Shown here in pieces: positions 17,797 through 63,622 of a stretch of 64,000 bases of DNA; position 1 is the first letter of the stretch; each line of letters opens with the position of its first letter. Source of the stretch: a virus. Its lineage: Duplodnaviria; Caudoviricetes. The translations under genes and the position numbers were made by a program. The stretch lies in IMG/VR virus record IMGVR_UViG_3300025600_000004, positions 15,564-79,563 of that record; one strand, given 5' to 3'. The notes beneath the pieces are model-generated. The model did no database searches, was not told where the DNA came from, and saw nothing but the letters and a program-made list of their open reading frames with translations.

Positions 17797-18035
17797 TAAA
17801 ACTCAGAAAGACTCAGTGCCCACACTGTCAACGTACCGTCCATGCAGTCCTAAGTCACGGTGAATGGCGAGGTGAGTGTTCAGTGTGCAGCGATGGGTTT
17901 ACTATGCCTACTGTGTTGCCCGAAGTTTCCGAAGATGAACGTAGACGTGTCGATGAATTCTTTGATAACCTAAGTTTCGATGATCTCAAAGTCAAACTAG
18001 GAGAAGCAGGGTATGCGGAGGATGCCAAGGGATAA
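17793..18035 (+). CDS. Hypothetical zinc-finger protein containing an in-frame copy of the 28-bp motif
   Basis: CPHC/CSVC; MPTVLPEVS encoded by motif at 17903. Confidence 0.55.
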   Translation: MIKLRKTQCPHCQRTVHAVLSHGEWRGECSVCSDGFTMPTVLPEVSEDERRRVDEFFDNLSFDDLKVKLGEAGYAEDAKG

Positions 18036-18108
18036 CTATGTCTACCTTGTTGCCCAAAGTTTCCTAGGGATATGGAGTGGCTTCCTAAGTAGCCGAAGGA
18101 GGGATTAG

Positions 18109-21100
18109 ATGGACAATTATGATACTTACGTACCACCACATTTACATCTTGATTACAGTAACAATGGCATGAAGGATTCAGTGAATACCATAGATAACGT
18201 TGTGAAGAGACTCAAGGAAATCGGAGCTACTGCGTGTGCGGTGACAGACCATGGAACTACATCGGGCATCGTAGAAGCATACAAGAAGTTCAAGAAGGCA
18301 GGGATTAAGCTGATTCCAGGGTACGAAGGATATCTCACTGGAGACCTGTCGATACAGCAAAGAGACCTAAGCCATATAACACTGTGGGCAAAGGATTCTC
18401 AGGGGCTTCGTAACCTCTATGAAATATCTACGATTGCCAATGGGGACAAAGGTCGTTCACCGAATAACTATTACTACAAACCGAGGGTGGACTTAGAATT
18501 ACTGAGACGATTCTCTGCTGGCATCATGGCTGGATCTGCGTGCCTTGGTGGATGCTTGGTTACTGAGGATTACGGTGTGAACGAAGATAAACTTCAGCAA
18601 CTTATTGACATCTACGGAGCTGATGATGTATTCCTTGAAATCCATACATACCAATGTCCTGAGCAATTCAAGTACAACCATGCACTCGTCAAAGCATCCA
18701 AGAAATTCAATGTGAGACTCATAGTTGCTACGGATGCCCACTTCGCGTGGAAGTACAGTGCTGAACTCAGAAAACACTTCAAGAATACATCGAAGACTCA
18801 GGAAGGCGATGAGAATATTGACGATACATTGTATATTCAAGATGTCGATGAAATACGCAGTAACCTGAGATACCTAGATGGACTCGTAATCAATGAAGCC
18901 ATTGCCAATACCCATGTACTCGCAGAGAAATCCAATGTAGAAATAGCATTCAACGGTAAGCACTATCCAGAGTATAAGTGTGAAAATCCATTGACAGAGG
19001 TGAGACTCCAAGCAATCGCAGGGTGGAATAGGTTAGTCAAAGGCACTGGCGTAGATTACGATGCATACGCAGAGAGAGTCAAGTTTGAACTGAACATCCT
19101 CGATAAGCAAGACTACTGTAGTTACTTCTTGATCAATAGTGGACTCATTAAGAAATTCATTGCAGCAGGGATTCCAGTGGGTGACGGTAGAGGATCAGTG
19201 GTGGCATCGATGGTGGCTTGGTTGCTAGGGATTACAAAATTAGATCCATATAAATACAATTTAGTCTTCGAAAGGTTTGCTCACATGGAAAGGCTTAGTC
19301 CACCCGACGTGGATACTGATATTTCTAAGAAACACAGACATCAATGCTTAGAAATTATCAAAGAAGAATACGGTGAGACGTACCAGTGTAGAACCTTCGC
19401 CCGCTATGGTGCATCAGGGAGCATTAGGCAAGCAGGGAAGGCATTGTTCTATCCATTGGATGTCGTGGATGCCTTAGCAAAATCATTGTCTAAGTATGAA
19501 TCCGATGATGAAGACGATGAAACTTCCACGTATGATCAGAAGATATGGATGTTAGACAATGTTAAAACCGATGACAACGCAGACCTCATAGAACTAGCAA
19601 AGCAATTCGTAGGCATCTGCTTTGGATATGGCAAACACGCCTCAGCGATCATCGTACTGACAGAGGATGTTCTACAGTTTTGTTCCGTAGAGCGTCAGAA
19701 GGACAGTAAAACAGGGGATATCAATTACATCCTCGCATGTGACTTTAAACTCCTTGAGGAAATGGGACTGATGAAACTTGATATGCTTGGACTTAAGACC
19801 CTCGATGTTATCCAAGATACATTAGATATGCTCAGTGTTCCCATTGACATTGAAACTATTCCATTGGATGACGAAGCTACTTCTCAGATGTTATGCGAAG
19901 GCAAAACCAAAGGCTGTTTCCAAATATCTTCACCTGGCATGACACAGTTAGTTAAAGGAATTCAGCCTAAGAACTTTGCTGACATGATACCTTTGGTTAG
20001 TCTGTACAGACCAGGGCCACTCGATGCCATCGTAGAAGAAACAGGGGACACAATGGTTGACACCTATGTAAAAGTCAAGAATGGCGAGATAGAAGCCACG
20101 TATCTCCATGAAAAACTGCGACCTATCCTTAGTGACACCTACGGGATTATCTTATATCAAGAGCAAATCTTAGAAATAATCAAGGAACTATGTGGGTACT
20201 CATTGGGCGAGGCTGACATGTTTCGCAGAATTATTGGCAAGAAAAAAGTCGATGAAATGAAACCTGCGATTGAAGCGATGATTGAACGTGGAGTTATCCA
20301 AGGCATCCCTAGACCAACTATGGAATCCATCGCAGATCGCATTGTAACCTTTGCTATGTATGGATTCAACAAGTGCTTATCAGGGGATGAGAGGCTTCAT
20401 AGACCTGCCAATGGTAAATTTATGCCAACACTGAGTGAAATGTGGATGATCAAGAATAGCCTCGCATACGCCAAAGAAACCAAGCACAAAGAACTCTATG
20501 ATAAATACAATGCGTATGGCTATGGGACAACGTTGTCTATGTTTGACGATGGCAATATCAAGAAAAATACTATAGTTGACATTGTACCCTCTGGAACCGC
20601 AGCCATCTATAGACTCACTACGAAGACAGGGAAGATCGTAGACTGCACAATGAATCATAAGCTCCCTACACCACAAGGTGGCAAGATACTCTATGATCTC
20701 AAAGTAGGCAGCGAAGTTTATGTCATTGGCGACTATGAAATTACATCGACCATCTATAATTTCTACAATGGTAACCCTCCAGAATCCAACGTACCCAAAG
20801 CAGGACAACAGGGCTTCCAGCGTAATCCATATGGAGCATCGACACTCTTTGATACAGCAAGGGAATTCTTCAGTAACATCCACGCTGCCTGTGAAGACTG
20901 CGGAACCTATGATGCTAAGAAATACGAATTGCACCATGTTAACATGAATCGCCAGGATAATTCCAATGAGAATCTAAGGTGGCTATGTGTATCGTGTCAT
21001 CGGAAAGCTCATTATGCCATGGGCAGAACTAAGGTGGGAACAAGGGGCTCATCGGCTGCCATAGATACCATCGCAAGCATAGAATATCTAAAAACCACAG

Positions 21101-22065
21101 AAGTCTTTGATGTGACAATGGAGGCTCCAGCACATAACTTCGTTAACCTAGGTGGCGTAGTAGTCTCAAATTCTCATAGTGCTGCCTATGGAAAGCTGGC
21201 GTACAAGACCTCGTATCTCAAGGCTCATTATCCTCTGCAATATATGTGTGCATGTATCAACAATGAAGAAGGTAAGCAAGACAAGATACTCCCGTTCATC
21301 AAGGAGTGCGGGAAGCTGGAGATTACAGTGTTGCCCCCTGACATCACATTGAAGAATCGCCAATGGATTATACAGGGAGATTCACTGGTGATGGGGCTTC
21401 ACTATATCAAAGGTGTCGGCAATAATCTCAGGTTGGACAATATAAATTCCTATGATGACATTGTACGCTATAATGCTAAGGATGTAACTACAGCACTTAT
21501 CAAGTCTGGAGCAATGGATAGCTATGGTGATCGTGGAGTCCTACTGGATAGCTTAGAATCACTACAGGATACAATGAAACGCATCGACAACTGCATGGCG
21601 AAGGTCAAAGAGAACTCAGAATCCCTAGCACTCGCAGTATCTGACAAAGACATCAAGAAGTATGCTCGGCAGAAGGGACAATGGGAAGCCAAGTTGTCCG
21701 AAGCCAAAGCAAAGGAAGCTCAAGTATCATCCACTGAATTCTATGATAAAGTCATAGGAGAAATCGAGGTCTTAGGTTACAGCGAAGGTGTATCTCCGAC
21801 AATTAAAGTAGGTAAGGTAGTCGGTGTATTCTCTAAGGTGATAGGCAATGGTTCAACTATGGGTTGGGTCACGCTAAAGTCTCCTCATGGTGAGTTTCGA
21901 TGTGCGTGTTTCTCAGATATGTGGGATATCATCAAAGACTTAGTAGTCGTAGGGTCAACATACAAATTCGTCGTTAAATCCAATGATCGCGGTGACAACT
22001 TAGAAGAGATATCGATTAACGGAGTAACCCATAGAAAGCCTCAGAAGCAATGGGCGAAACGATGA
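18109..22065 (+). CDS. dnaE: DNA polymerase III alpha subunit (family C) with intein
   Basis: PHP motifs (HLHLDYS, AVTDHG), GRGSVVAS, PPDVDTD, KLDMLGLKTL, YGIILYQEQ, YGFNK/SHSAAY. Confidence 0.95.
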   Translation: MDNYDTYVPPHLHLDYSNNGMKDSVNTIDNVVKRLKEIGATACAVTDHGTTSGIVEAYKKFKKAGIKLIPGYEGYLTGDLSIQQRDLSHITLWAKDSQGLRNLYEISTIANGDKGRSPNNYYYKPRVDLELLRRFSAGIMAGSACLGGCLVTEDYGVNEDKLQQLIDIYGADDVFLEIHTYQCPEQFKYNHALVKASKKFNVRLIVATDAHFAWKYSAELRKHFKNTSKTQEGDENIDDTLYIQDVDEIRSNLRYLDGLVINEAIANTHVLAEKSNVEIAFNGKHYPEYKCENPLTEVRLQAIAGWNRLVKGTGVDYDAYAERVKFELNILDKQDYCSYFLINSGLIKKFIAAGIPVGDGRGSVVASMVAWLLGITKLDPYKYNLVFERFAHMERLSPPDVDTDISKKHRHQCLEIIKEEYGETYQCRTFARYGASGSIRQAGKALFYPLDVVDALAKSLSKYESDDEDDETSTYDQKIWMLDNVKTDDNADLIELAKQFVGICFGYGKHASAIIVLTEDVLQFCSVERQKDSKTGDINYILACDFKLLEEMGLMKLDMLGLKTLDVIQDTLDMLSVPIDIETIPLDDEATSQMLCEGKTKGCFQISSPGMTQLVKGIQPKNFADMIPLVSLYRPGPLDAIVEETGDTMVDTYVKVKNGEIEATYLHEKLRPILSDTYGIILYQEQILEIIKELCGYSLGEADMFRRIIGKKKVDEMKPAIEAMIERGVIQGIPRPTMESIADRIVTFAMYGFNKCLSGDERLHRPANGKFMPTLSEMWMIKNSLAYAKETKHKELYDKYNAYGYGTTLSMFDDGNIKKNTIVDIVPSGTAAIYRLTTKTGKIVDCTMNHKLPTPQGGKILYDLKVGSEVYVIGDYEITSTIYNFYNGNPPESNVPKAGQQGFQRNPYGASTLFDTAREFFSNIHAACEDCGTYDAKKYELHHVNMNRQDNSNENLRWLCVSCHRKAHYAMGRTKVGTRGSSAAIDTIASIEYLKTTEVFDVTMEAPAHNFVNLGGVVVSNSHSAAYGKLAYKTSYLKAHYPLQYMCACINNEEGKQDKILPFIKECGKLEITVLPPDITLKNRQWIIQGDSLVMGLHYIKGVGNNLRLDNINSYDDIVRYNAKDVTTALIKSGAMDSYGDRGVLLDSLESLQDTMKRIDNCMAKVKENSESLALAVSDKDIKKYARQKGQWEAKLSEAKAKEAQVSSTEFYDKVIGEIEVLGYSEGVSPTIKVGKVVGVFSKVIGNGSTMGWVTLKSPHGEFRCACFSDMWDIIKDLVVVGSTYKFVVKSNDRGDNLEEISINGVTHRKPQKQWAKR
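20374..21171 (+). mobile_element. Intein (266 aa) with HNH homing endonuclease, inserted in YGFNK|SHSAAY
   Basis: Starts C(LSGDE), ends ...HNFVNLGGVVVSN before Ser+1; internal CEDC...ELHHVNMNRQDNSNENLRWLCVSCH. Confidence 0.92.
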
Positions 22066-22416
22066 TTTCCTATGCCCACTATGTTTCCCAATGTTTCCTC
22101 ATAGTCCATCCTAGCGTCCCAATCCAAGGTATCCTATGCCAAACCTACGCACGACAAAGAAACCCACTGAGCGTCCTTCTAGGGTGCTTGGTGGGAAGCT
22201 ACGCATAATCTTCGTAAACTCAGATTAAAACGGAGGGAATTACAATGGCAAAACTGCAATACGTAGGATACACCGACGACTTAGATATCTTCATGTATCC
22301 ATCAGAGGATAAACCAGAGGATTCAATGAATGTAACATGGGATTTCCCAAACTATCTCATGGGCATCAAAGTAAGAATCACCATAGAACCAGAGGAGGAC
22401 TAAGGTACATGGCAAA

Positions 22417-25765: not shown

Positions 25766-25773
25766 AATATCCA

Positions 25774-25812
25774 AAGAAACATATTGACATAATGAATTGA
25801 CTATGGTACACT
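25774..25812 (+). promoter_or_regulatory. sigma70-type promoter
   Basis: AAGAAACATA-TTGACA-17-TACACT. Confidence 0.7.
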
Positions 25813-26329
25813 AAGTACATAGCAAAGGTTGCACGGACACAATGGATCAAGGGTGATCCGCATTGCTATGGCTAGGGTGTTTCCCGAAGTTTCCACAAGG
25901 AATAAGGAGGAAGAACAATGATAAAACAAGAGCTAACACCAATGGAAGAACAGAGTATTTTCAATGCAGCCTTTGAATATAGGTATGCTGGCAAAGAATT
26001 ATCTTGGGGCTTAATTACTGCGATAATCAATAGGCGACTCGATGTAAAGTACAATGTCAACAAGGTTAGACAAGTATGCGGAAGACTGCACAGGGAGTTC
26101 GTTGTCAAACGAGGTAACCAATGAAGATCAACTGTAGTTATATCAATGACTGCCTAAATCGTAACAATGACTGCGATATGTGCACTAGAAACTCCCTGTA
26201 TACCCACTGGACACTTGGAGATCAATATCATGCTGAGAAGTGCAATGATTGCCAAGATAACAAATACTATGAAGTCTGCGAAGACAATGTCTGCAATGAA
26301 TATCACAATAATTACGAGGAGGAATAACA

Positions 26330-26605: not shown

Positions 26606-27220
26606 ATGACAACAATGACCAACCAAGAATTAGCCACAGAGTTCCGCAGACTGGCTAAGGAAACCCTGGCATCCTTAGAAACCATAAAGAGTGGCAATAG
26701 ACTCCTTAGCACAATGATAACAGCTAAGGCGCACGATGAACACATGGAGCAACTGAAAGCTATGAATACAGTGATGTCTCAGCAACTCGAATCTATCAAA
26801 GCAATGGTCAATGGCACAACTATGCCCACCTTGTTTCCTAGAGTTTCCGAGATCACTCAGACTTACATCAAAGAACTCCAGGCATCCAATGACATCATGC
26901 AGACACAGTTAGAAACCATATCATCACCAGAACTACGCAAGATATGGAGCGATGCACATTCTAAGATGGCCGAAGAATACAAGTATAAACTTGCAGTACT
27001 TCTGAGTCAACCTATTTACGAAGTACACCTTGATGTCAATGCTCCAGAGTTTCCAAAGAATACGAAGGATACCATGGCATTCTATGAAGCCATGATGAAA
27101 ATCCCTGAGCATCAACGGACATCCGAAGAAATCGGTGAATCACTAAGGAGAATACTTAGTAGCATCAACGAAACGGAGGAATTACAATGTATTTCACAGC
27201 CAAACACCAAGAACTCATAG
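26606..27220 (+). CDS. Hypothetical helical protein with in-frame 28-bp motif
   Basis: AGGAGG RBS; MPTLFPRVS from motif at 26821. Confidence 0.55.
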   Translation: MTTMTNQELATEFRRLAKETLASLETIKSGNRLLSTMITAKAHDEHMEQLKAMNTVMSQQLESIKAMVNGTTMPTLFPRVSEITQTYIKELQASNDIMQTQLETISSPELRKIWSDAHSKMAEEYKYKLAVLLSQPIYEVHLDVNAPEFPKNTKDTMAFYEAMMKIPEHQRTSEEIGESLRRILSSINETEELQCISQPNTKNS

Positions 27221-27751: not shown

Positions 27752-28420
27752 ATGAATAACTTAGTCACAATGACAAACGGCACAGCCACAGTAACATCTC
27801 GGCAGGTCGCGGAGAACTTTGGGAAGGAACATAGTAAGGTCAAGGCATCCATAGAAAATATCATGGAAGAATTAGGTAGCGCGGAAATCGGCGACACCTC
27901 AATGTTCACAGTGGGATGCTATGTAGATCAGTGGAATCGCAATCAGGCAGAGTTTACAATGAATCGCGATGGCTGGACTTTGCTGACTATGGGATTTACT
28001 GGTTCCAAAGCCCTTCAATGGAAGCTCAAGTACATCGCAGCATTCAATGATATGGAGAAGCAACTTAGTACCCATGCAATTCCACAGACTCGCGCAGAGG
28101 CTCTGAGACTTGCTGCGGATGCGATGGAACAACTTGATTCAGCCAAGACTCTCATAGAAATCATGGAGCCCAAAGCTAAAGCCTTCGACATATTCATTGA
28201 CTGCCAAGGTTACTACTCAGTTGGCACAGCAGCCAAGATGTTGAACACTGGTCGCAATAGACTCTTCGCATTCATGGCAATTCATAAAATCATCATGGAT
28301 AGCAATGTTCCCTATCAATGCTATGTAGACAGAGGGTACTTTGCGGTCAAAGGTCATAATGGAATCACCTATGTATCTCCCAAGGGTCTCCAATGGTTGT
28401 CGGAGAAACTCTTAGCTTAA
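27752..28420 (+). CDS. Rha-family regulator with C-terminal ANT/KilAC antirepressor domain
   Basis: VTSRQVAENFGKEH, MNRDGWTLLTMGFTGSKALQWKLKYIAAFNDME, TAAKMLNTGRNRLF. Confidence 0.9.
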   Translation: MNNLVTMTNGTATVTSRQVAENFGKEHSKVKASIENIMEELGSAEIGDTSMFTVGCYVDQWNRNQAEFTMNRDGWTLLTMGFTGSKALQWKLKYIAAFNDMEKQLSTHAIPQTRAEALRLAADAMEQLDSAKTLIEIMEPKAKAFDIFIDCQGYYSVGTAAKMLNTGRNRLFAFMAIHKIIMDSNVPYQCYVDRGYFAVKGHNGITYVSPKGLQWLSEKLLA

Positions 28421-28795
28421 CTATGCCCACACTGTTTCCCAAAGTTTCCAAGGAGGTGATACAATGGACAGCTTCAGATTCAAACTCAGTAATCCTGAGT
28501 CCCTAGGACATGACTTCGAATACCTAGCAACCAAAGTCACTCCAGGGAGGTACAAGGTATCATGGACTGACAAAGGAGTGCTACAGGCAGAGGACTTCGG
28601 ACTCTTTGAGGTCAGAGACTCTATCAAGGATGGTACTTGGGTGATCGTAGAATAGTCGAAGTATAAGGAGGTAACAATGGAATTACTTAGTCAATACAAT
28701 GCTATCATATGTCAAGTCTTAGTAATCATATGCATACTGAAGTCATCATGGCATTACTGGAAAGGCGATGTAACCAAGGCAAACTTTGAGATGCT

Positions 28796-29134
28796 ATGGG
28801 CAATCTTGTTAAACATGGGAATATAAGGAGGAATAACATGGAAATCAACATTAGAACAATGTCAACAATGGAGTCGCTAAAATCCAAGGAACTCAGAGTC
28901 GCAGGGTACATAGACAAATTCCTAGCTTTTGCAAAGTACATCGAAGGTAAGGCATTGGCATTCCAGAGAAATTCCACAGAACAACTACGGGATGACCTCG
29001 CCAAACAACGATCCATCCGAGCAGACTACTTGATCACCTTGGCACTAGAGGCTCAAAGGGTTAACGATGAAATCGATGAGATTACTGAGGCTCATGGCAG
29101 ACATAGTGAGAATCTGGAGATGTACAAGGGTTAA
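28796..29134 (+). CDS. Hypothetical coiled-coil protein (likely start ATG near 28838)
   Basis: AGGAGG RBS upstream of MEINIRT. Confidence 0.5.
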   Translation: MGNLVKHGNIRRNNMEINIRTMSTMESLKSKELRVAGYIDKFLAFAKYIEGKALAFQRNSTEQLRDDLAKQRSIRADYLITLALEAQRVNDEIDEITEAHGRHSENLEMYKG

Positions 29135-29227
29135 CTATGTGCACTGTGTTTCCAAAAGTTTCCTAGGAATACAAAGTTTCCTCCAAGGCGTACATCGGGA
29201 CGACCACGTAGCGAAGGAGATTATAAC

Positions 29228-29845: not shown

Positions 29846-30530
29846 GCATAAGTGGTCGCAACCATGTTGCTCGCACAACTATGTCCACCCTGTTTCCCAG
29901 AGTTTCCTACGATCACACAGGGAGCATGGAGTCATCAAACTCCACTCCCATACAAAGGAGTTAACAATGAAAGTCAATGTAAGCATCGTAACAGAACGTA
30001 GATTCACATTGGATATGTCAGAGGATGAAGCTAGAACACTAAGAAGCCTAGCCCCTAACATCGGATACAAGCAGATCACGGGATTCGGTGGCGGTCATAG
30101 TATAGCAGAGAAAGGCGATGAGTTATTCAAGGACATTAGTGAGACTCTTAGAAGCATCCTATGAACACGCAGGACTACATCGTAATCTGCGGAAAGCCCA
30201 TAGTACTCCCAGAATGGCTGAGTCCCTTAGATATGCCCAGCGATTCGCAGGACTACATGGAATACTTGGACTACAGCGAGGACATAGGTAACTTTAATTG
30301 AGCTTTGAATAGCGATGTAAGCGTAGGAGTACAAAGTTGCACCAGCGTCCTCTGAGGGCGTTACAATGAGAAACGGAGGAATATCAATGATTAGTATGTT
30401 TGTCGCAGGTGCTTTGTTCACATCGATAGCCTTAGATGTATTGCGTAGAGATTGCAATGGATTAACAGTGTTCAATACAGTAGCTTGCATAGGGAACATA
30501 TGGTGTGCGTTAAATTAAGGAGGAATAACA

Positions 30531-30911
30531 ATGGTTAACTCAGCAGAAACCCAGCTTGCAATGGAAACAGTGTTGCAGTCAATGAGAAACGTAGGCTCCC
30601 AGTTATCAGCATTGAAGTCCAAGGTTAGATTCTACAATAATGCATTGGATAATCTTAGACACATCCGTGAGTTCAATGAGACTATGACTTGCTTAGAAAT
30701 CTTAGATCATGACAAGGAAGTCCATCGGATTTCTAAGGAGAGGCGCGTCATCAAGGATGAGATCATGGTACTCGGTGCATTCAAAGGATTATACGATGAC
30801 AACCCTGGACTTAGGGATGCGATGCAGAACGTGGTGAATTCTATGGAGTGTGCGAAGAGGCGGGTGGGGAGTCAGAGGTATTTTCTAAAAGACACTGGTG
30901 GCGTGGTTTAA
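30531..30911 (+). CDS. Hypothetical protein
   Basis: AGGAGG RBS; stop abuts motif copy. Confidence 0.55.
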   Translation: MVNSAETQLAMETVLQSMRNVGSQLSALKSKVRFYNNALDNLRHIREFNETMTCLEILDHDKEVHRISKERRVIKDEIMVLGAFKGLYDDNPGLRDAMQNVVNSMECAKRRVGSQRYFLKDTGGVV

Positions 30912-30964
30912 CTACGCATACTGTGTTGCCCGAAGTTTCCTGAGAATGCGGAGGAGGTGATTCA

Positions 30965-37241: not shown

Positions 37242-37607
37242 TGATGAGTAAACTTAGTGAAATCAAGGTGGCAGTGAGTCCATTGAGCAACACAATATTC
37301 GCAGGATATGTCAAGGGTGACCGATGGACTTCTAAGGTAGACGTGACAGACCAGGTTATCAAGGCAGTCATGGAACATCTCAGTGTGGCTCAGTGCGATT
37401 ACGAAGGTAAACTCGGAGTATTGACATTGAAGCTAATTATCCGTGAATAACACAGCGCGATACAGAGGTTTTACCTAGGTAGGACTATGGATTGCTTTGG
37501 TGGAGTGGTGGAGTATGTGTCAGCGGAGTGCTAGGGTGGTATTTCTATGCCTAGATTGTTTCCTAGAGTTTCCTGGGAGTACGAAGAATGCGAAGGAGTG
37601 GTGTAGT

Positions 37608-42149: not shown

Positions 42150-42960
42150 TACTTTGCAAATCCTAATAGACGCAGACATCCAATGTTTTCTCGCAGCTTG
42201 CATAGGCGAAACCAAGACCGACTGGGGGCCGTACACAGATGAGCAAGGCATTCTCCATGAAACCAACATAGTAATAGCCTATGATCTTCCGAAGGCACTG
42301 TCAGTCTTCGAAGCCAAGGTGTCCAATGTTATCCAAGCAGTCAGAGAATACATGGGAGTAGACATGGAATACAAAGTAACTATGTGCTTGACTCATAGGA
42401 ATAACTTCAGAAAGACATTGATGCCAAGTTACAAAGCAAACCGCACAGCCCCGAAGCCGAAGTTGCTCCCAGATATCAGGGCTCACTGTGAAGCGAAATA
42501 TGACTGCGAGTGCTGGGAGAACTTGGAGGCCGATGATACATTGTCTATTTTAGGCACTACTTTGGACAACAGTGTAGTGTGCAGTATAGACAAAGATATG
42601 CTGACTATCCGCGACACCATCGTTTACAACTGGAACAAAGATAACTTTGTACACACTGACCCACAGTCTGCACAGTATCACCACTATTACCAGACACTCA
42701 AAGGCGACTCCTGTGACGGCTTCGGGGGAGCAAAGGGCATCGGTGATAAACGAGCCAGAGCCATCTTAGAAACCGATGATTCATGGGAAGCTGTGGAGTC
42801 CACGTTTATATCCAAAGGACAGACCAAAGAAGATGCATTGTTGATGGCAAGGATGGCAAAGTTGCTAACACCAGACCTTTATGATAGAGCCATGGGTACA
42901 GTGACATACTGGAATCCACCTGGCACTCCTATGCCCACCATGTTGCCCGAAGTTTCCTGA
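42136..42960 (+). CDS. 5'-3' exonuclease, T7 gp6-like
   Basis: LIDAD, NNFRK..MPSYKANR, LEADD, SIDKD, GDSCDGFGGAKGIG; C-terminus MPTMLPEVS is the motif. Confidence 0.88.
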   Translation: MNLSDTLQILIDADIQCFLAACIGETKTDWGPYTDEQGILHETNIVIAYDLPKALSVFEAKVSNVIQAVREYMGVDMEYKVTMCLTHRNNFRKTLMPSYKANRTAPKPKLLPDIRAHCEAKYDCECWENLEADDTLSILGTTLDNSVVCSIDKDMLTIRDTIVYNWNKDNFVHTDPQSAQYHHYYQTLKGDSCDGFGGAKGIGDKRARAILETDDSWEAVESTFISKGQTKEDALLMARMAKLLTPDLYDRAMGTVTYWNPPGTPMPTMLPEVS

Positions 42961-44447: not shown

Positions 44448-44514
44448 GGGATTACTATGTCTACGGTGTTTCCCAAAGTTTCCACGAAGAATACGAAGAT
44501 GGAGGAATGACATA

Positions 44515-46134: not shown

Positions 46135-46839
46135 ATGAAAATCAAAGTAACCAAAGGTAGAAACAGTTGCTGGTACAATGACTTCATAGGTGAAATCTTC
46201 GAGGTAACCAATGATCGCAGAGGTTATTATACAGTTAAGCACAATGGCACCGATGATATCTGCGTTGTTAATCATGAGGACTGCGAAGTCATCCCAGAGT
46301 TTACCATCGGCTCCAAGGTAATCGTCAGAGACAACTCAGAGGACGATGGTCGCACTGGAGTTATCATTGGCACAGACGATGTATATCCATGGAGAATCAG
46401 GTATGACAGCAATGGAGAGAATGAGCTATTCTTTGAAGGATGCTTGGAGTTAGTCCCAGAGGAACAATGGCTCACGAAGGAAGCTGCGTTATGCCTCGCA
46501 ATCAAGGGAGCCAAGGTAATCAATAAAGGAACAAGGAAAGACACAACGTATGTCTATTGGAATGGCAGAGGATTCGTCGTAAATATCAAAGATGATACAG
46601 AATATCCATTGGAATCACCTAGAGCCGATGATACTCATTGGAAGATCTGGATTCCACCGACACCTCCGAAGCCTAAGTTCTCCATCGACTCCTTCGTAAT
46701 CTTCGAAGAATGCTATGTTCGCATCATTGATTCAGAGTTCAAGCATGGAAATCATAGATACTATGTGTCCAAGGGAACCTTTGCAAATGCTAAGTCAGAC
46801 TGCATGGTTGCCGATGAAACTGAGTTAACAGAGGTGTAA
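46135..46839 (+). CDS. Hypothetical protein with SH3/KOW-like modules
   Basis: FTIGSKVIV..GRTGVI, KFSIDSFV, DETELTEV. Confidence 0.55.
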   Translation: MKIKVTKGRNSCWYNDFIGEIFEVTNDRRGYYTVKHNGTDDICVVNHEDCEVIPEFTIGSKVIVRDNSEDDGRTGVIIGTDDVYPWRIRYDSNGENELFFEGCLELVPEEQWLTKEAALCLAIKGAKVINKGTRKDTTYVYWNGRGFVVNIKDDTEYPLESPRADDTHWKIWIPPTPPKPKFSIDSFVIFEECYVRIIDSEFKHGNHRYYVSKGTFANAKSDCMVADETELTEV

Positions 46840-47291
46840 CTATGCCCTCTATGTCTCCAAAAGTTTCCACAAATAACGAAGGAGTGATCCAATGGAAAGC
46901 GTTGCAATCAAAGTTACCGCTTGGATGATTACGATAATCATATGGAAATGCTTTGTTGACCTTGTAACCTATGCATTCCATATTCCCTTTGATGTCACAT
47001 GGATACAAGCATTGGTCGTCGCATCGGTATGGACACTAGGTATCAAAGTACTAAGAAATATCTTTGGAGGTAAACAATGAATAACTTAGAAGCAATGGTT
47101 ATCAAAGTATTAACATCGTACAACGAAGGTGCTGCCGTAGACACCACCGATCCACTGACAAAGAGGGTCGTGGATAAGCTGTGGCGCAGAGGTTTGCTGG
47201 TGAAGGCTGTGAGTAACGGTGAGATGTCGGTGAGTGACTACGGACGCAGGGTGCTACGGAAGTTTAAGGCGATGGAAGGCGAGGTGGCTCA

Positions 47292-52183: not shown

Positions 52184-52827
52184 CGAAAATAAAGACATGT
52201 GAAATATGTGGAACCACAGATGGCGTTATTTACAAAAGCACCAAATATAATAAAGTGTTATGCTCAAGGCATTCAGCACAAATGGATAATCATGGGAAAA
52301 TATTAGAAAGAACGAGGTATGACGGTAACAAGTTTATTATCAATGGAGATATATTGACAATTACTATGTATGATAATAAAGGCAATGAGAATGGTGAAAC
52401 AATACTTGATGCTAAACATTACGATGCTGTTTCTGCGTTTAAATGGCATTGCTTAAAAGGAAGTAAGTACGCAGGGAGCCGTATAAACGGAAAGCAAATC
52501 CAATTACATAGGCTTATAACAAATGCTAATGACGAAATGGTCGTTGACCATAGAAACCATAACACCTTGGATAATAGAGATATAAATTTAAAAGTATGTA
52601 CTCGTCAAGAAAATTCATGGAACTATAGTAATAACCCAGCTAATACCAGTGGACATAAAGGTGTATATTAGTACAAAAGAGATAGCAAGTGGCAGGCGAA
52701 AATATACGTAAAGAATAAAAGCATACATCTTGGTTACTTCGACAATATAGACGATGCTATAAACGCTCGCAAGGAAGCTGAGATTAAGTACTTTGGAGAA
52801 TGTCTTTATAGCTCCACTGGAGCATAA
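52180..52827 (+). pseudogene. HNH-AP2 endonuclease interrupted by in-frame TAG at 52669-52671
   Basis: HNH part ends GHKGVY*; same frame continues YKRDSKWQAKI...HLGYFDNIDDAINARKEAE to TAA 52827. Confidence 0.8.
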
Positions 52828-52879
52828 CTATGTCCACTATGTTGCCCAAAGTTTCCTAAGATAATGAAGGAGGAATTCT

Positions 52880-53236
52880 ATGCAAGCAACCCTGCACTAC
52901 CATTGTTACCTACTACGCATCAAAGACTACTGGGTGCGCCTTGTCTTCCATCGCGGAGCCAAGCGTCACCATCGTAAATACCTTCGTACCCTAGGGACTG
53001 ACATAGAATTCCTTGGCTCCTTGCCCTTGCCAATCAAGTATGACATAGATGTCCAAGTAGGCCAGGGAACCAAGGTGGTCAATAGCTTTACAGTAATCTC
53101 CTGCAAGCATGTGAGACAGATGATAACCCAAGACCTCCAAGAGCAAACCTTAGTAGAATACCAAAGGTCATCCATAGTCAGAATCCGTAGAGGACAGGAG
53201 GATTACATCGATGCAAAGATTCTTAGACAAGCTTGA
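52880..53236 (+). CDS. Hypothetical protein
   Basis: GGAGG RBS after motif copy. Confidence 0.5.
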   Translation: MQATLHYHCYLLRIKDYWVRLVFHRGAKRHHRKYLRTLGTDIEFLGSLPLPIKYDIDVQVGQGTKVVNSFTVISCKHVRQMITQDLQEQTLVEYQRSSIVRIRRGQEDYIDAKILRQA

Positions 53237-53798
53237 GCACCACCTATGTGATCTGAGGAATGTGCAGAGTTCATTGCCTTCCTCTGGTGGCCTTGAACTC
53301 TTAGAAGAGCAGTATAGACGCAGGTTACTCATAGGGCACTTCAGAGTTCTATGTTCCCTGCGAGACTCCGAAGGATCACCAGTGCTGGATCGTAGAAACC
53401 GTCGCATCCTATACCTCTACGCTGTGGGGCATTCCCAGCGAGCCATAGCAACCAAGGTAGGCATCAATCAACCCAATGTACTCAAGCGAATCAATAGTAT
53501 GTCTAAGAAGATACTGATGTACGCCCCAGTACAAACATTGGATGGTCTATGGGGGCTTCTGCAGAGTTCACAGTCAACTAAGACTGCCCATGCTCCCGAG
53601 GTTATGTTGGGATTAGGCTTCGATGCTGCACAGGAGACATACGCAGGGAGTTACTGGGGTAAACACAATGGCAACAAGGCGTGGAAGACTAAGAGTACCT
53701 GTGAAGTTCCTGCGTATCTCTCAGTCTGCTTTGGAGACAAGGAGACTCGATGTAGTTACTGTGGGATCGGATGTAGTCGTAAGAAGGTCAATGGATGA
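53211..53798 (+). CDS. Sigma70-region-4-like HTH protein, candidate late transcription activator
   Basis: RRILYLYAVGHSQRAIATKVGINQPNVLKRINS; Cys-rich C-terminus; last gene of early block. Confidence 0.6.
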   Translation: MQRFLDKLEHHLCDLRNVQSSLPSSGGLELLEEQYRRRLLIGHFRVLCSLRDSEGSPVLDRRNRRILYLYAVGHSQRAIATKVGINQPNVLKRINSMSKKILMYAPVQTLDGLWGLLQSSQSTKTAHAPEVMLGLGFDAAQETYAGSYWGKHNGNKAWKTKSTCEVPAYLSVCFGDKETRCSYCGIGCSRKKVNG

Positions 53799-55238: not shown

Positions 55239-55396
55239 CCTTACAATCCCATTGTACCTACCTAGTAGGACGCTGGTGCGGTTTTACGGTGTAACGTAGG
55301 TATTCCATAAGGGTGTATGGATTAAAGCTGTGGTGTGGCGTTGTAGGGCGTGGGATATAAAGAAAGACCATAGATTAATTCTATGGTCTCAGTGGA

Positions 55397-56173: not shown

Positions 56174-56500
56174 AATATCACTACCTTTCCGTCCATTAAT
56201 GTACATTCATTGTATCATAGATCCCTTAGATAGTCAATAAGTCATTGTATCAATATGTTTCTTTGCATGTCGTCATTACTCTATGTATTACAATGTTTAA
56301 TCCTATGTAGATACCACAAATCCCATTGCACCTACCTCACAGCACCATAGAGCAACTTTGTCCACATGCGCATACAATCCATAGGACTACATAGATTAAA
56401 CCTCTGTAATCTCATCGTAGAGCGTCGAATTCAAAGTACACAAAGAAATACCCACGTTTTACCGTGGGCTGCCTGTGATTATTCATATGTGATCTCCTTA

Positions 56501-57632: not shown

Positions 57633-57691
57633 GTTATCACCTCCTTTCGTTCGAAGGAAACTTTGGGAAACATAGTTTACATAGTTGTACC

Positions 57692-58204: not shown

Positions 58205-58616
58205 TGTATTTCCTCCTTGTGCCTGAGACCCTTTGTTCTCCACGGCATAACCATTGATTCAGTGAATGTTGCTAAACATGAACAGTGAGCTTCAGAGAAC
58301 TACCAGCCTCTACGAAATATACAGTCCAGCCATTGTTTAAATTCTCTGTTCTTACCTTTGAATCTCCTAGTCTTCAGTGTCAGCATAGTATTTCCAAGTA
58401 CTCACAGTACTCCGCAGAATGCTGAGTGTACAACTTAGTTTCCTTCATTGGTTCATAGTTACCCTCTGCATGACATTGTATCAACAGTTCTATGTCTGCG
58501 AGGTTTGCCTTTGGGATTCGTCGGTGGGACATGATGTTCTTAAGTTGCTTGGCTGTCATTGGAAGACCTCCTTTGTGTTCGTGGAAACTTTGAGAAACAG
58601 GGTGGACATAGTTATC

Positions 58617-59189
58617 TTAGGCAATATCACCGTTGGCGTAGAATTCGTAGTCGTTGGCTTCGCAGGTTTCGATCATGCATTCCTCTGAATTCTGATATTC
58701 AAGTTCTGCATACCCTGTCTTTTCTAGTTCTCTACAGATACCTATGCGCCATTCGTTGATAGTTTCTTCGCAGGACTCAATGAATTTAGCCAATGCTTTA
58801 CCATAGTATCTATGGGAATATAACTCTGTTTGTACAGTGTATTCATGGGCGCACTGGTGGCTTATTCTTTCGAATTTCAAAGTAAAGTAGGGAAGGACTT
58901 TGATTAACCTTGCAGGTACTTTGTTATCATAGACTTTATTAAGAATTGTCATTGCTTCTTCGTTTTCCCATCGTCCTGTAAAGCTAACACCGTCACCTTG
59001 GCAACTACTGAGGCTATAACTAAGTTCAGCATGGGGAATTTTATAGAATTCACTTAGATCGTTTTCAAGGGTATCAGTGAGCAGGAAGGAATCATCATCG
59101 TTAAGCCAGTGCTTTACTTTGTCCTTTGCACGTTCGCTAAGTTCTCCATAGGTATATACATTGACTTCTTTAATTCTCATTGTTATCAT
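58617..59189 (-). CDS. Conserved mobile-element hypothetical protein
   Basis: VYTYGELSERAK...ELEKTGY.ELEY..SEE...ETCEANDYEF. Confidence 0.6.
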   Translation of the reverse strand: MITMRIKEVNVYTYGELSERAKDKVKHWLNDDDSFLLTDTLENDLSEFYKIPHAELSYSLSSCQGDGVSFTGRWENEEAMTILNKVYDNKVPARLIKVLPYFTLKFERISHQCAHEYTVQTELYSHRYYGKALAKFIESCEETINEWRIGICRELEKTGYAELEYQNSEECMIETCEANDYEFYANGDIA

Positions 59190-59739
59190 ACTCCTCTTAG
59201 TAAACTTCGGGAAACAAGGTATTTCATAGTTAATTCAGTACACCACATAGTATAAACGCTGTTTAGTCCAGGACATTGCAGGGGATAGGCTATGTTATAC
59301 TTTGTCCCATTTGCGGTTATGGGATAACCAGTATCACTTAGCATACTAGGCAAGTCTTAGTTACCTATGTACACCTTAAACTCTGTCTTAGCAGTCTATG
59401 CAACATTCACGGTTTCCAGTAAATCCTCCATAGGACACTAAGCGCGTCCTAGACAATCCTTCGTATCATAGTGCTTCACCTCCTTTGTAGTTCGATGTCC
59501 TCCTTGGGTTGATCATTGGGTTCACCTGCTTTCGTTGGTAGCTATAGTTACATGGAATAATGCCTTGATAATAATGTATCTATACGCAGCCTTTGGCATT
59601 CTGTGAGTCCATCGTAACCCTTGGCTATCTCAGTATTAAGGAGAATGTCGAGTTCTTTGAGTTCGTCACTGGTTAACATTGCTATCACCGATCCTTTATG
59701 TATATTCTATGGAGTCCGTTGTTTCTTTGACTTGATTAC

Positions 59740-61733: not shown

Positions 61734-61771
61734 AGAAACATGTTGACACAGTGAATAGACTATGTTAAACT
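61733..61771 (+). promoter_or_regulatory. sigma70-type promoter
   Basis: AAGAAACATG-TTGACA(61743)-17-TAAACT. Confidence 0.7.
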
Positions 61772-62304
61772 ATAAGAAGCAGCAGTGTTCCCTTTGGAGT
61801 CAAAGTGAACATTGGTTTTCCTATGGGTACGTTGTTTCCTGGAGTTTCCGAAGAATACAAAGGAGGTATACTATGATACTCACAGAAGCAGAGAAATTCA
61901 GAGTTAACAAAGTAACCAAAGAAATAGCTAGGGAAGGCATTAGACCAATGTATGTCAAAGGAGTCAGTGTTGGCGATGTATCCGTAGATATAAAGCTAGG
62001 TGACACTAAGTTGCGACTGCGGATGGAGAAGGGATACTATATGAACTGTGGTCACTTTGTACATGGATGGAAACTCTATGTAGGTAATGTTCACATCAGT
62101 GAATCCGATGACGGTCAATGGTGGGACACTGTACGCGATGAGATTCCAAAGCTAGAACAGTTAGTCATTGATTATTACAAGACTATCGATGACAGGCAAA
62201 GGGAAGATAAAGAACACCGCGATCAACAAAGAGCCAGAGAATTGCAACGTGCCGAAGACTATCTCAATGGGTGGCGATGGTGGAAACCTTGGTGGAAGGG
62301 TTAA
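61762..62304 (+). CDS. Hypothetical protein (likely start MILTEAEK after GGAGG near 61873)
   Basis: RBS follows motif copy; stop abuts next motif copy. Confidence 0.55.
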   Translation: MLNYKKQQCSLWSQSEHWFSYGYVVSWSFRRIQRRYTMILTEAEKFRVNKVTKEIAREGIRPMYVKGVSVGDVSVDIKLGDTKLRLRMEKGYYMNCGHFVHGWKLYVGNVHISESDDGQWWDTVRDEIPKLEQLVIDYYKTIDDRQREDKEHRDQQRARELQRAEDYLNGWRWWKPWWKG

Positions 62305-62375
62305 CTACGCCCTCCCTGTTTCCCAAAGTTTCCTGCGTATCCAATGAATCCAAAGTATAAGGAGGAAGAACCAAT

Positions 62376-62882
62376 ATGATATACCTATATCTTACATCGA
62401 TAATCATGGCTAACGTAGTAACTGCTCAGTTTGCACCGTTGAACTTTGGTTGGTGCATAGTTCCCTATGGTACATTCATCATAGGACTCACATTCATCTT
62501 CAGAGACTTAGTGCAACAAAGAATAGGCCGACGTAAAACCTATGGAGTCATCGGACTAGCATTGGTACTCTCAGCAGTAACCTCAGCAATACTTGGCGAT
62601 CCACTGACCATCGTAATAGCATCTGCGGTTACCTTTGCCTTCTCTGAAACCGCGGATACTGAGATATTCACTAGACTACGTGGAACATTCATAGAGAAGG
62701 TACTATACAGCAGCGTAATCGGTGGCATAGTAGACTCAAGCATCTTCGTCATCATTGGATTGTCACCGTTTGGCGCAGGGTTCCTAAGTTGGTCACAGGT
62801 TCCCCTGGCAATACTAGGGCAAATCTTAGTAAAGACATTGATGCAACTAGGGAGTGTCATTGCCATCCGTAGGTTTATGTGA
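62376..62882 (+). CDS. VUT/YhhQ-family queuosine-precursor transporter
   Basis: ANVV, GTFIIGLTFIFRDLVQ, ASAVTFAFSETADTEIF, DSSIFVIIGL; multi-TM. Confidence 0.85.
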   Translation: MIYLYLTSIIMANVVTAQFAPLNFGWCIVPYGTFIIGLTFIFRDLVQQRIGRRKTYGVIGLALVLSAVTSAILGDPLTIVIASAVTFAFSETADTEIFTRLRGTFIEKVLYSSVIGGIVDSSIFVIIGLSPFGAGFLSWSQVPLAILGQILVKTLMQLGSVIAIRRFM

Positions 62883-63622
62883 AGGTATTCCTTGCTGGCG
62901 TAGATCGCCTTAGTTTCCTGCCTTTACTATGGAACAATGGAGCCCGAAGGATTCTCATAAACTACTGGGACTGGCGTAATCGCTTCCACAAACTCATCCC
63001 AGAGTTACAGAAGTATAACTTTGAAGTACTGTTGGATTCTGGAGCATATGTCAAAGCTGCCAAGATTAATGTTAAGGATTACGCAGAATTCCTAGGCAAA
63101 TACAAAGATTACTTCTGTGGATACTTCAACCTAGATTCACTGTATGCCGATGATAACGTAGCGGTGTCGATGGACAACCAGGAATACTTAGAGTCCCAAG
63201 GTTTAACTCCGATACCAGTGTATCACTTCGGAGAACCCATAGAAGTGCTCCATGAATTGTTGCATAGTCATAGTCACATCGGCATCGGTGGTTGTGCGAG
63301 GAAATCTAGTAATACCGTGGATGCGTGGTTGAAGACATTGGAGCTACATAGATATTCGTGGGTACAATGGCATGTGCTGGGAATTACTGCAAAGTCAGTC
63401 CTTGAGAATAACCCAAGCATCACCAGTGTTGACTCTACGAAGTGGTTGGTAGGTCGCAGGTTTGGTATGCTGGTTAATGAAAGTGGCGTAGGACAAACAC
63501 CGAGCAAGTTAGGGAACGATGAAATGACTAAGATAAACATTGAGTGGCATTTGAAGCTGGAGGTGCTCTTGCATCAATCCAAAGGTATTCCTATGCCCAG
63601 TGTGTTTCCGAAAGTTTCCTAG
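62879..63622 (+). CDS. TGT/DpdA-like TIM-barrel (7-deazaguanine transglycosylase candidate), no C-terminal Zn site
   Basis: LLDSGAY, YFNLD, IPVYHFGE, HIGIGG, WHVLG, SVDST; coupled to VUT gene. Confidence 0.65.
   Translation: MKVFLAGVDRLSFLPLLWNNGARRILINYWDWRNRFHKLIPELQKYNFEVLLDSGAYVKAAKINVKDYAEFLGKYKDYFCGYFNLDSLYADDNVAVSMDNQEYLESQGLTPIPVYHFGEPIEVLHELLHSHSHIGIGGCARKSSNTVDAWLKTLELHRYSWVQWHVLGITAKSVLENNPSITSVDSTKWLVGRRFGMLVNESGVGQTPSKLGNDEMTKINIEWHLKLEVLLHQSKGIPMPSVFPKVS

What the first reader, a model, noticed from the sequence alone, without database searches (positions are those of the whole stretch)
17903..63619. 21-copy, transcription-oriented 28-bp element marking early/middle gene boundaries (stoperator-like network)
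Seen: cTAYG-N7-TGTTKCYNRRAGTTTCC recurs 21 times (e.g. 28422 TATGCCCACACTGTTTCCCAAAGTTTCC; 44456 TATGTCTACGGTGTTTCCCAAAGTTTCC; 52829 TATGTCCACTATGTTGCCCAAAGTTTCC). Length is fixed and it contains two GTT(T/G)CC-type units exactly 10 bp apart. All 18 copies in rightward blocks are on +; all 3 in the leftward block (57656, 58583, 59200) are on -. None was seen in 1-16.5 kb (tail/lysis). Most are followed within 0-20 nt, often via a GAATAC-like linker, by an AGGAG(G) RBS. Established: mycobacteriophage L5 stoperators are asymmetric, transcription-oriented repressor sites near gene boundaries. Inference: this is a genome-wide phage control network (repressor roadblocks, activator sites, or an mRNA element read just 5' of the SD). 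I do not recognise an equivalent description for this phage group.
Basis: partly seen in the sequence, partly recalled or inferred. Interest (0 to 1): 0.88.

Follow-up and report, generated by a model that had tools for sequence, protein, structure and literature searches.

The report
Oriented 36-bp phage gene-front signal
A previously unseen 79.5-kb phage carries 22 copies of a strictly oriented 36-bp DNA signal in front of its replication, nucleotide-metabolism and anti-defence genes, most likely a phage-specific promoter class, and its whole genome also shows a very unusual repeat of C-N3-G every ~10 bp.

Summary
There are 21 copies in the window and 22 in the 79,563-bp genome, against 0.04 expected. 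All 22 point the way their genes are transcribed, and none lies in the ~30 kb of virion genes. The conserved block is 36 bp, not 28: GGnwTAACTATGcccACnnTGTTKCCcaAAGTTTCC, about 46 bits, with a sharp 3' edge followed by a conserved purine-A 4-5 nt later.

It is not a structured RNA (no consensus pairs, no Rfam match), does not measurably hide the ribosome-binding site, and is absent from other viral, metagenome and prokaryote collections beyond chance.

A separate family of 11 host-type sigma-A promoters drives early transcription, so the 36-mer is a second signal class. My best reading (about 0.4) is a phage-specific "middle" promoter, read by host RNA polymerase with an unidentified phage factor. 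One candidate is a sigma-region-4/GerE-like protein at 53211-53798. No sigma factor or RNA polymerase gene was found.

A stoperator-like repressor roadblock remains possible (about 0.25), but two stoperator hallmarks are not met. Close relatives exist but their DNA could not be fetched, so neither covariation nor RNA ends could be tested.

By-product: a genome-wide, helically phased C-N3-G lattice (1.84x expected; 175 control loci at most 1.22). It is mostly written in synonymous sites and is weak or absent in apparently foreign genes.

The parts
17895..17930 (+). 36-bp element, copy inside the 80-aa ORF 17793-18035, 134 bp upstream of the next copy
   Evidence: 57.6 bits; translated in frame as ..FTMPTVLPEVS..
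18029..18064 (+). 36-bp element; upstream stop TAA lies inside it (-15..-13); precedes DnaE (18109-22065)
   Evidence: DnaE by Pfam
22063..22098 (+). 36-bp element just after the DnaE stop; next start about 147 nt away
25859..25894 (+). 36-bp element about 45 nt downstream of the -10 of early promoter 25773-25812; ATG 23 nt after it
26813..26848 (+). 36-bp element inside orphan ORF 26606-27220, upstream of the ProQ-like gene
28414..28449 (+). 36-bp element; TAA stop of the Rha/ANT gene lies inside it; SD starts right after it
29128..29163 (+). 36-bp element before the T7-type SSB gene 29228-29845
29872..29907 (+). 36-bp element before the 65-aa gene 29967-30164
30905..30940 (+). 36-bp element before the 399-aa gene (phrog_2467), heading a 6.6-kb stretch with no further copy
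37538..37573 (+). 36-bp element before the HNH gene and the primase-helicase
41150..41185 (+). 36-bp element; upstream TAA lies inside it; precedes genes leading to the flap endonuclease
42922..42957 (+). 36-bp element fully translated as the C-terminus of the flap endonuclease (..PGTPMPTMLPEVS*)
44448..44483 (+). 36-bp element before the 254-aa gene 44515-45279
46833..46868 (+). 36-bp element heading the NrdD/NrdG/nucleotide-metabolism block; ATG 23 nt after it
52821..52856 (+). 36-bp element before the 118-aa gene and the sigma-r4/GerE-like HTH gene; ATG 23 nt after it
57656..57691 (-). 36-bp element in the leftward block, before gene 57632-57273
58583..58618 (-). 36-bp element in the leftward block, before the 59-aa gene and ArdA
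59200..59236 (-). Most degenerate window copy (1-nt insertion, AGTTTAC), before gene 59189-58617
   Evidence: 18.5 bits
61814..61849 (+). 36-bp element about 40 nt downstream of the -10 of early promoter 61732-61771; ATG 23 nt after it
62298..62333 (+). 36-bp element before the YhhQ/Vut-like transporter and the DpdA/TGT-like gene
63584..63619 (+). 36-bp element translated as the C-terminus of the DpdA-like protein (..KGIPMPSVFPKVS*); precedes a 202-aa RepL-like wHTH gene that wraps the record end
53211..53798 (+). Candidate trans-factor: 195-aa protein with a sigma-70 region-4/GerE-like HTH (res. 59-99) and a C-terminal Cys cluster; last gene before a bidirectional terminator
   Evidence: lead only
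16582..16621 (+). Context: one of 11 host-type sigma-A early promoters (AAAGAAACATATTGACA..TG.TAnAnT). Others: + 25620, 25773, 40305, 40376, 61076, 61732; - 60227, 59779, 56264, 22998

Best explanation
The 36-bp element is the promoter of a second, phage-specific transcription class ('middle' or delayed-early). Host sigma-A RNA polymerase first uses the 11 consensus-type early promoters. A phage product then redirects or assists RNA polymerase to start at the 22 elements, probably at the conserved purine-A 4-5 nt past the 3' edge. This would give short leaders that run straight into a strong Shine-Dalgarno site. It would boost the replication, nucleotide-metabolism, DNA-modification and anti-defence genes but not the virion genes. 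In this register AAGTTT sits at -12..-7, with A at -11 and T at -7. TGTTKCC sits at about -21..-15 and TAACTATG at about -36..-29. Shown: copy number, strict orientation, placement in front of genes, restriction to one gene class, 36-bp width, lack of RNA structure, and a distinct early promoter family. Inferred: that it initiates transcription, the start point, and the factor. The candidate factor is the sigma-region-4/GerE-like HTH protein at 53211-53798, whose own operon is headed by a copy.
For: All 22 copies are co-oriented with the local genes, including the 3 in the leftward block. Nineteen sit upstream of an SD and start codon, and six have an identical 23-nt spacing to the ATG. None lies in about 30 kb of virion and lysis genes. 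The conserved width of 36 bp and about 46 bits (against 12.8 needed) matches a large footprint such as a polymerase-plus-factor complex. It exceeds typical operators. Conservation ends sharply at TTTCC, followed by a purine at +20 (19 of 21) and A at +21 (16 of 21). Invariant and freely varying positions alternate and the flanks are unrelated, so this is selection on a site, not recent copying. A separate family of 11 sigma-A promoters with TTGACA, TG and TAnAnT exists, so the phage has at least two signal classes. The same leader (GTACGAAGAAT..) follows both the -10 of sigma-A promoter 61076 and copies 37557 and 63603. The only intrinsic terminators found on the + strand of the right-hand early/middle gene block lie at 45768 and 53830, so internal starts are the simplest way to raise expression of chosen genes. 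RNA-level readings are disfavoured. A sigma-r4-like HTH protein is encoded at the end of the block.
Against: No sigma factor, MotA/AsiA-like protein or phage RNA polymerase was found by Pfam or PHROGs over essentially all ORFs. There is no low-information spacer as in classical -35/-10 promoters. The -10-like AAGTTT matches TATAAT only at the A and the final T. Every copy lies downstream of an early promoter in the same direction, so none is demonstrably needed for expression. No copy follows the + terminator at 45768. Two copies sit only about 40-45 nt downstream of an early promoter, which suits a roadblock equally well. No transcript data could be obtained.
Confidence: 0.42

Rival explanations
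1. Operator or roadblock site. A phage repressor, possibly a multi-domain or tandemly bound protein reading the helically phased units, binds the 22 sites and stops elongating RNA polymerase in an orientation-dependent way. This would resemble mycobacteriophage L5 stoperators and would silence replication and anti-defence genes in a lysogen.
For: The site is asymmetric, occurs in many copies in short intergenic gaps, and its orientation follows transcription. These are the defining distribution of stoperators (PMC9283540). The phage has lysogeny-type genes: an integrase, a CI-like XRE with divergent promoters, and an orphan tandem-HTH XRE protein with its own promoter and terminators. Two copies sit about 40-45 nt downstream of early promoters. 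The direct repeats 10 bp apart would suit tandem DNA-binding domains.
Against: No copy overlaps any early promoter, so there is no operator form. None lies in the virion arm. Nine of the 11 early promoters have no copy within 0.5-1.3 kb, so the genes just downstream would stay unrepressed. The 22 bp conserved around the -35 of the early promoters is a more natural immunity operator. The tandem-HTH gene is an orphan with a weak C-N3-G signature (1.28 against a median of 1.86). That suggests recent arrival, which fits poorly with a 22-site network. The site is three times longer than a stoperator.
Confidence: 0.25
2. RNA-level element. The transcribed, unstructured C/U-rich 36-mer just 5' of the ribosome site is read in the mRNA. 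It could be a processing site, a translation enhancer or standby site, or the common target of an antisense RNA helped by the phage ProQ/FinO-like protein.
For: The element is always on the sense strand and lies close to the SD in 12-19 copies, with a fixed 23-nt spacing in six. The phage encodes a ProQ/FinO-domain protein and a separate ProQ-C-like ORF. UUUCC can pair with GGAGG in several minimum-free-energy folds.
Against: RNAalifold finds 0 conserved pairs and the small upstream hairpin shows no covariation. There is no Rfam match. SD pairing probability is 0.60 for motif genes against 0.51 for other genes, p = 0.13. Three copies have no SD nearby. No complementary (anti-motif) sequence exists outside the copies themselves. 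Thirty-six near-invariant nucleotides is far more than known single-strand RNA-binding sites use.
Confidence: 0.12
3. Architectural or recombination element. The copies are high-occupancy, oriented nodes of the genome-wide C-N3-G lattice, such as loading or anchoring sites for a DNA-coating or DNA-modifying activity. Alternatively they are module boundaries that promote gene-cassette shuffling, with expression effects secondary.
For: The element holds four pentads in exact lattice phase at -12, -3, +7 and +15/16. The lattice is genome-wide and unique among 175 control loci. The element abuts or contains the upstream stop codon in 13 copies. Flap-endonuclease relatives carry a different conserved tail at the same junction.
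Against: The lattice is palindromic and present everywhere, including the virion genes, whereas the element is asymmetric and class-restricted. Shuffling would be a by-product of any dispersed repeat. No recombinase or coating protein can be tied to it.
Confidence: 0.1

Closest known systems
Class-specific phage promoters (T7 class II/III for its own RNA polymerase; SPO1 gp28 middle promoters; T4 MotA/AsiA middle promoters). These rest on my own knowledge.
   Same: About 15-30 highly similar, strictly oriented copies in front of one temporal or functional gene class. They coexist with host-type early promoters, and their information content far exceeds what is needed to find the sites.
   Different: No cognate polymerase, sigma factor or MotA/AsiA homologue is detectable here. 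The block is 36 bp, continuous, and built from helically phased 10-bp units rather than -35/-10 boxes or a 23-bp T7-type site. No start sites have been mapped.
Stoperators of cluster A mycobacteriophages (L5, TipsytheTRex; PMC9283540)
   Same: An asymmetric site in more than 20 copies, lying in short intergenic spaces, with orientation correlated with transcription.
   Different: Stoperators are 13-mers bound by a monomeric immunity repressor. They also occur as operators in promoters and are spread throughout the genome. Here the site is 36 bp, is absent from promoters and from the virion arm, and has no known binder.
Start-associated sequences (SAS/ESAS) of cluster K mycobacteriophages (PMC3203893)
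   Same: A conserved, one-orientation element immediately upstream of the start codons of a subset of non-structural genes, with function unknown.
   Different: The SAS is a 13-bp element that includes the ribosome site, and the ESAS is a pair of 17-bp inverted repeats. Here the element is separate from the SD, with spacing from 0 to 50 nt. It has direct rather than inverted repeats, and three copies are not start-associated.
Promoter-early stem-loops (PeSL) of T4-type phages. This rests on my own knowledge.
   Same: Dispersed regulatory repeats at gene junctions that can also act as recombination points.
   Different: PeSLs combine a sigma-70 early promoter with a stem-loop. Here there is no host-type promoter and no stem-loop.

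Membership tests
Stoperator (cluster A mycobacteriophage type) | Asymmetric site, many copies in short intergenic gaps, orientation follows transcription | tested here: met
   22 of 22 copies are co-oriented and 19 of 22 sit at gene fronts
Stoperator (cluster A mycobacteriophage type) | The same site also serves as an operator inside the early lytic promoter | tested here: not met
   None of the 11 sigma-A early promoters contains the element. The closest copies lie about 40-45 nt downstream of a -10
Stoperator (cluster A mycobacteriophage type) | Sites spread throughout the genome, including the virion genes | tested here: not met
   No site scores above 10.6 bits in genome 3.1-33.4 kb
Stoperator (cluster A mycobacteriophage type) | Bound by the immunity repressor, which blocks elongation | not testable with these tools
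   No binding assay was possible. The AF2 model of the tandem-HTH candidate was unusable, with pLDDT 48
Phage-specific promoter class | Oriented copies upstream of the genes of one temporal or functional class, distinct from host-type promoters | tested here: met
Phage-specific promoter class | A cognate phage RNA polymerase, sigma factor or appropriator is encoded | tested here: inconclusive
   No Sigma70_r2, RNA_pol or MotA hit; the RNA_pol model rang in no control genome, so that search shows nothing. Only a sigma-r4/GerE-like HTH protein was found, at sub-threshold 14.6-16.6 bits, with Atlas neighbours scoring 0.88-0.91
Phage-specific promoter class | Primary transcript 5' ends map just downstream of the element | not testable with these tools
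SAS/ESAS (cluster K) | The element includes or abuts the ribosome site at fixed distance from the start codon; the ESAS has 17-bp inverted repeats | tested here: not met
   The SD offset varies from 0 to 50 nt and three copies have no SD. The repeats are direct, not inverted
Structured cis-regulatory RNA (any Rfam family) | Conserved secondary structure with covariation, or a match to a curated model | tested here: not met
   0 Rfam hits at gathering score; 0 consensus pairs in 22 copies

The most novel reading that the evidence does not exclude
The 36-mer is not a conventional promoter or operator. It is the oriented, fully occupied form of a genome-wide code in which C-N3-G pentads are laid down every ~10.2 bp on one face of the helix. 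That code is written largely in synonymous sites and is weak or absent in apparently foreign genes. A phage-encoded activity, such as a DNA-coating or architectural protein or a base-modifying machine, would read this face. The 22 elements would be where it is loaded, positioned or coupled to transcription.
Probability: 0.12. Interest if true: 0.9.

Novelty: new variant of a known kind. Interest (0 to 1): 0.58.

Why it matters
If the elements are promoters, this phage reprograms a Bacillota-type host polymerase using a factor that no current protein family model recognises. It would also use an unusually long, helically phased recognition site. That would be a new handle on sigma appropriation or activation, and a ready-made orthogonal promoter set. 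If they are roadblocks, stoperator-type immunity exists outside actinobacteriophages. In either case the 22 sites define the phage's regulon exactly and give a 36-mer bait for finding the factor. The C-N3-G lattice found along the way is a DNA-level constraint of a strength I have not seen described for a phage, and it deserves its own study.

Tried and rejected
- **Conserved RNA structure:** RNAalifold on 22 copies gave 0 pairs, and the GG..CC mini-hairpin shows no covariation. Rejected.
- **Rfam:** the scan of the window gave no hits, and the window holds no tRNA.
- **SD sequestration by UUUCC:** not significant.
- **Mini-ORF (ATG at -10, stop at +17):** a stop is present in only 6-7 copies, there is no SD, and two copies read ACG. 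Rejected.
- **Known promoter types:** sigma-54, ECF, SigB/H/W-type and Spo0A-box resemblances were checked by eye against consensus sequences from memory. None fits.
- **Downstream AAGAAT/GAATAC as a sigma-A -10:** the start site would fall inside the SD. Rejected.
- **Replication-polarity signal:** orientation flips with the 5-kb leftward gene block, not with a plausible origin/terminus pair. Rejected.
- **Host repeat:** the 29-bp pattern gave only 3 single matches each in the prokaryote-genome and metagenome collections, about the number I estimated for chance in the genome set. The 17-bp core gave only single matches in IMG/VR.
- **Relatives (DNA):** there are none in GenBank phages. IMG/VR holds only relatives at no more than 39% identity, and these lack the motif.
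- **Relatives (protein only):** close relatives appear only in the protein collection.
- **Tandem-HTH protein P0027:** it has no homologues, and the single-sequence AF2 model had pLDDT 48, so no fold search was made.
- **ORF 26606-27220 (tests whether the motif is an in-frame insertion):** no homologues were found.
- **P0025 against the PDB:** no match.
- **Complex prediction:** not used, because there is no protein pair to test.


Full report
**Provenance.** The window is bases 15564-79563 of a 79,563-bp IMG/VR virus record. Its 99-bp terminal repeat looks like the overlap of a circular assembly. GC content is 43%.

Genes identified:
- DnaE with an HNH-bearing intein, a DnaG-DnaB primase-helicase, NrdD, an ATP-dependent ligase, a flap endonuclease, Gad1 and a tyrosine integrase.
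- A T7-type SSB, a Rha/ANT protein, a ProQ/FinO-domain protein, dUTPase and a ThyX-like protein.
- ArdA, a tandem-HTH XRE protein and a short integrase-like protein.
- A CI-like XRE protein and an HTH_17 protein flanking divergent promoters.
- A Vut/YhhQ-type transporter next to a TGT/DpdA-like enzyme.

Strong AGGAGG ribosome sites, TTGACA/TG-TATAAT promoters and Bacillota-dominated Atlas neighbours point to a Bacillota host. There is no near relative in GenBank phages or IMG/VR.

- The core pattern gives 21 matches in the window against 0.04 expected, and 22 in the genome.
- The information profile shows a conserved block from -19 to +16: GGnwTAACTATGcccACnnTGTTKCCcaAAGTTTCC. It carries about 46 bits, against 12.8 bits needed to specify 22 sites.
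- A weight-matrix scan is sharply bimodal. Twenty-one copies score 35-58 bits and the indel-bearing copy scores 18.5. The next best site scores 10.6 and shuffles reach at most 0.9.
- No copy lies in the virion and lysis region.
- All copies follow the local direction of transcription.
- Invariant positions alternate with freely varying ones and the flanks are unrelated. The family is therefore held by selection, not recent duplication.

**Placement.**
- Twelve copies have a Shine-Dalgarno sequence within 0-20 nt, and seven more within 21-50 nt. Six have exactly 23 nt to the ATG.
- In seven copies the TAA of the upstream gene is the TAA inside the element (-15..-13). In four the stop lies at -17..-20.
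- In two copies (flap endonuclease and DpdA-like) the whole element is translated and the stop follows it.
- Two copies lie inside ORFs.
- In the four translated cases the same frame is used, giving x-M-P-(T/S)-x-(L/F)-P-x-V-S.
- The 'GAATAC linker' is part of the general ribosome-site context of this phage. It also occurs at genes without the element and after sigma-A promoters.

**A second signal class exists.** Eleven sigma-A-type promoters share AAAGAAACATATTGACAcaGTG-N9-TG-n-TAnAnT-aaGTACATA. They lie at window + 16582, 25620, 25773, 40305, 40376, 61076 and 61732, and at - 60227, 59779, 56264 and 22998.
- They head the same gene blocks that carry the 36-mers.
- Two of them lie only about 40-45 nt upstream of a 36-mer.
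- Terminator-like hairpins are few. On + they lie at 16551 (strong), 45768 and 53830. On - they lie at 53809, 55365, 56448 and 22162.

**What the element is not.**
- It is not a structured RNA. RNAalifold finds no pairs, there is no Rfam family, and the small upstream hairpin shows no covariation.
- It is not a detectable SD-sequestering element (0.60 against 0.51, p = 0.13).
- It is not host DNA. The 29-bp pattern gives only 3 single matches in about 596 Gb of prokaryote genomes and 3 in the metagenome collection. The 17-bp core occurs only singly in IMG/VR.

**What reads it is unknown.** Pfam and PHROGs scans of essentially every ORF found no sigma factor, MotA/AsiA homologue or RNA polymerase.
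- The best lead is the 195-aa protein at 53211-53798.
  - It has a sigma-region-4/GerE-like HTH, below Pfam thresholds.
  - Its Atlas feature and structure neighbours are small sigma-r4-like regulators of Bacillota and their phages.
  - It is the last gene before a bidirectional terminator, and its operon is headed by a copy.
- The tandem-HTH XRE protein (55397-56206) would suit direct repeats. However, it is an orphan, gave an unusable model, and carries a weak lattice signature that suggests recent acquisition.

**Relatives.** Primase-helicase homologues of 65-82% identity and flap-endonuclease homologues of 46-81% exist in Logan, ENA and JGI assemblies, some on contigs of 54 and 80 kb.
- The protein tails give an indirect view. 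Our flap endonuclease ends in the motif-encoded ..PGTPMPTMLPEVS*.
- Three or four relatives end instead in ..LC(P/L/Q)(S/P)(V/C)(K/Q)P(N/D/S)ETKEV(A/T)V*, and others stop earlier.
- Back-translation is compatible with a shared CTATGCCC 5' part and a different 3' part.
- This is inference only. It suggests that relatives carry a related junction element of different specificity at the same place.

**Weighing the readings.**
- **Promoter reading (0.42).** It is favoured by the width, the information content, strict polarity, class restriction, the sharp 3' edge with a conserved purine-A, the coexistence with host-type early promoters, and a leader shared between a sigma-A promoter and two copies.
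  - It is weakened by the missing factor, the lack of a classical spacer, and the absence of any copy that is demonstrably needed for expression.
- **Stoperator-like reading (0.25).** It shares the distribution logic (PMC9283540). It fails two family hallmarks: an operator form inside promoters, and genome-wide spread.
- **RNA reading (0.12) and architectural/recombination reading (0.10).** These remain minor.

**By-product: a C-N3-G lattice.** Genome-wide, a C is followed four bases later by a G 1.84 times more often than expected. Every other gapped dinucleotide (gap 0-7) lies between 0.62 and 1.23.
- It holds in every 5-kb bin, in all three codon phases and in non-coding DNA.
- The pentads are spaced with a period of about 10.2 bp and a coherence of about 60 bp.
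- In 175 control loci the ratio is 0.93±0.11 (95 loci) and 1.03±0.05 (80 loci), with a maximum of 1.22.
- Shuffling synonymous codons within genes drops the coding-sequence ratio from 1.80 to 1.24±0.01. Shuffling whole codons drops it to 1.05.
- Apparently foreign or mobile genes have a weak signal or none: 13799-14587 at 0.67, 12756-13595 at 1.05, and the HNH and homing-endonuclease-like genes at 1.3-1.5.
- 61% of start codons sit in CAATG.
- The 36-mer holds four pentads in perfect phase.
- CCGG, GGWCC and GCNGC are almost absent.
- Known DpdA target motifs (GA, GGC; titles and abstracts) do not explain it, and the literature use of 'CNNNG' refers to I-TevI cleavage.

I do not know what causes the lattice.

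Noticed in passing
whole window 1-64000 (and genome 1-79563): A genome-wide C-N3-G excess of 1.84x. The pentads recur every ~10.2 bp with about 60 bp coherence. It holds in all codon phases and in non-coding DNA. Synonymous-codon shuffling drops the coding-sequence ratio from 1.80 to 1.24. In 175 control loci the maximum is 1.22. The cause is unknown.
   Followed up: partly
window 12756-14587: Two genes (279 aa on +, 262 aa on -) lack the C-N3-G signature, with ratios of 1.05 and 0.67. The HNH/homing-endonuclease genes and the tandem-HTH XRE gene are also low (1.28-1.51). This looks like recently acquired DNA.
   Followed up: partly
whole genome: Near-total avoidance of CCGG (2 found against 149 expected), GGWCC and GCNGC. 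GGCC, CGCG and GCGC are strongly depleted. This is likely restriction-site avoidance.
   Followed up: no
window 16582, 25620, 25773, 40305, 40376, 61076, 61732 (+); 60227, 59779, 56264, 22998 (-): A family of 11 sigma-A-type early promoters with about 22 conserved bp around the -35 (AAAGAAACATATTGACAcaGTG). This may double as an UP element or an immunity operator. Two members have GAAAC-N13-GTTTCC around the -35.
   Followed up: partly
window 8279-8356, 15823-15900, 55249-55326 (+); 30357 (-); genome 3142 and 2383 (-): A 78-nt repeat (CCAtTGTAcCTgCCTAgGAGGACGCTGGTG...GATTAAA) with a conserved 5' hairpin and a second hairpin showing two compensatory pairs. There is no Rfam match and its function is unknown. 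One inverted copy abuts the outlying motif copy at genome 3070.
   Followed up: partly
window 27187-27755: A ProQ/FinO-domain ORF (Pfam 31.1 bits). A Phage_ProQ_C_like hit (8.9e-15) appeared among the small ORFs scanned; I guess it is the 49-aa ORF that follows the ProQ gene (27606-27755), but the scan does not name the ORF. This would be unusual for a Bacillota-type phage.
   Followed up: partly
window 42922-42960 and relatives P0031, P0034, P0037, P0075: Flap-endonuclease relatives end in a different conserved tail (..LCPSVKPNETKEVAV*), where this phage has the motif-encoded tail. This suggests a related junction element of different sequence in sister phages.
   Followed up: partly
window 22190-22245 and 42965-43003: Copies 22082 and 42941 are followed by the same leader (cttcgtaaactcag(a)ttaaa.acg.agg), a second shared module.
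   Followed up: no
window 30240-30300 (-): A degenerate inverted motif-like site (10.6 bits) lies in the 370-bp non-coding gap 30164-30531, next to an inverted copy of the 78-nt repeat.
   Followed up: no
L119 7403-7478 (genome coordinates, outside the window): A tRNA-Thr(TGT) gene followed by a bidirectional terminator, just upstream of the terminase region.
   Followed up: no
gene starts genome-wide: 61% of start codons have C at -2 (CAATG), so the ATG itself is part of a C-N3-G pentad.
   Followed up: no
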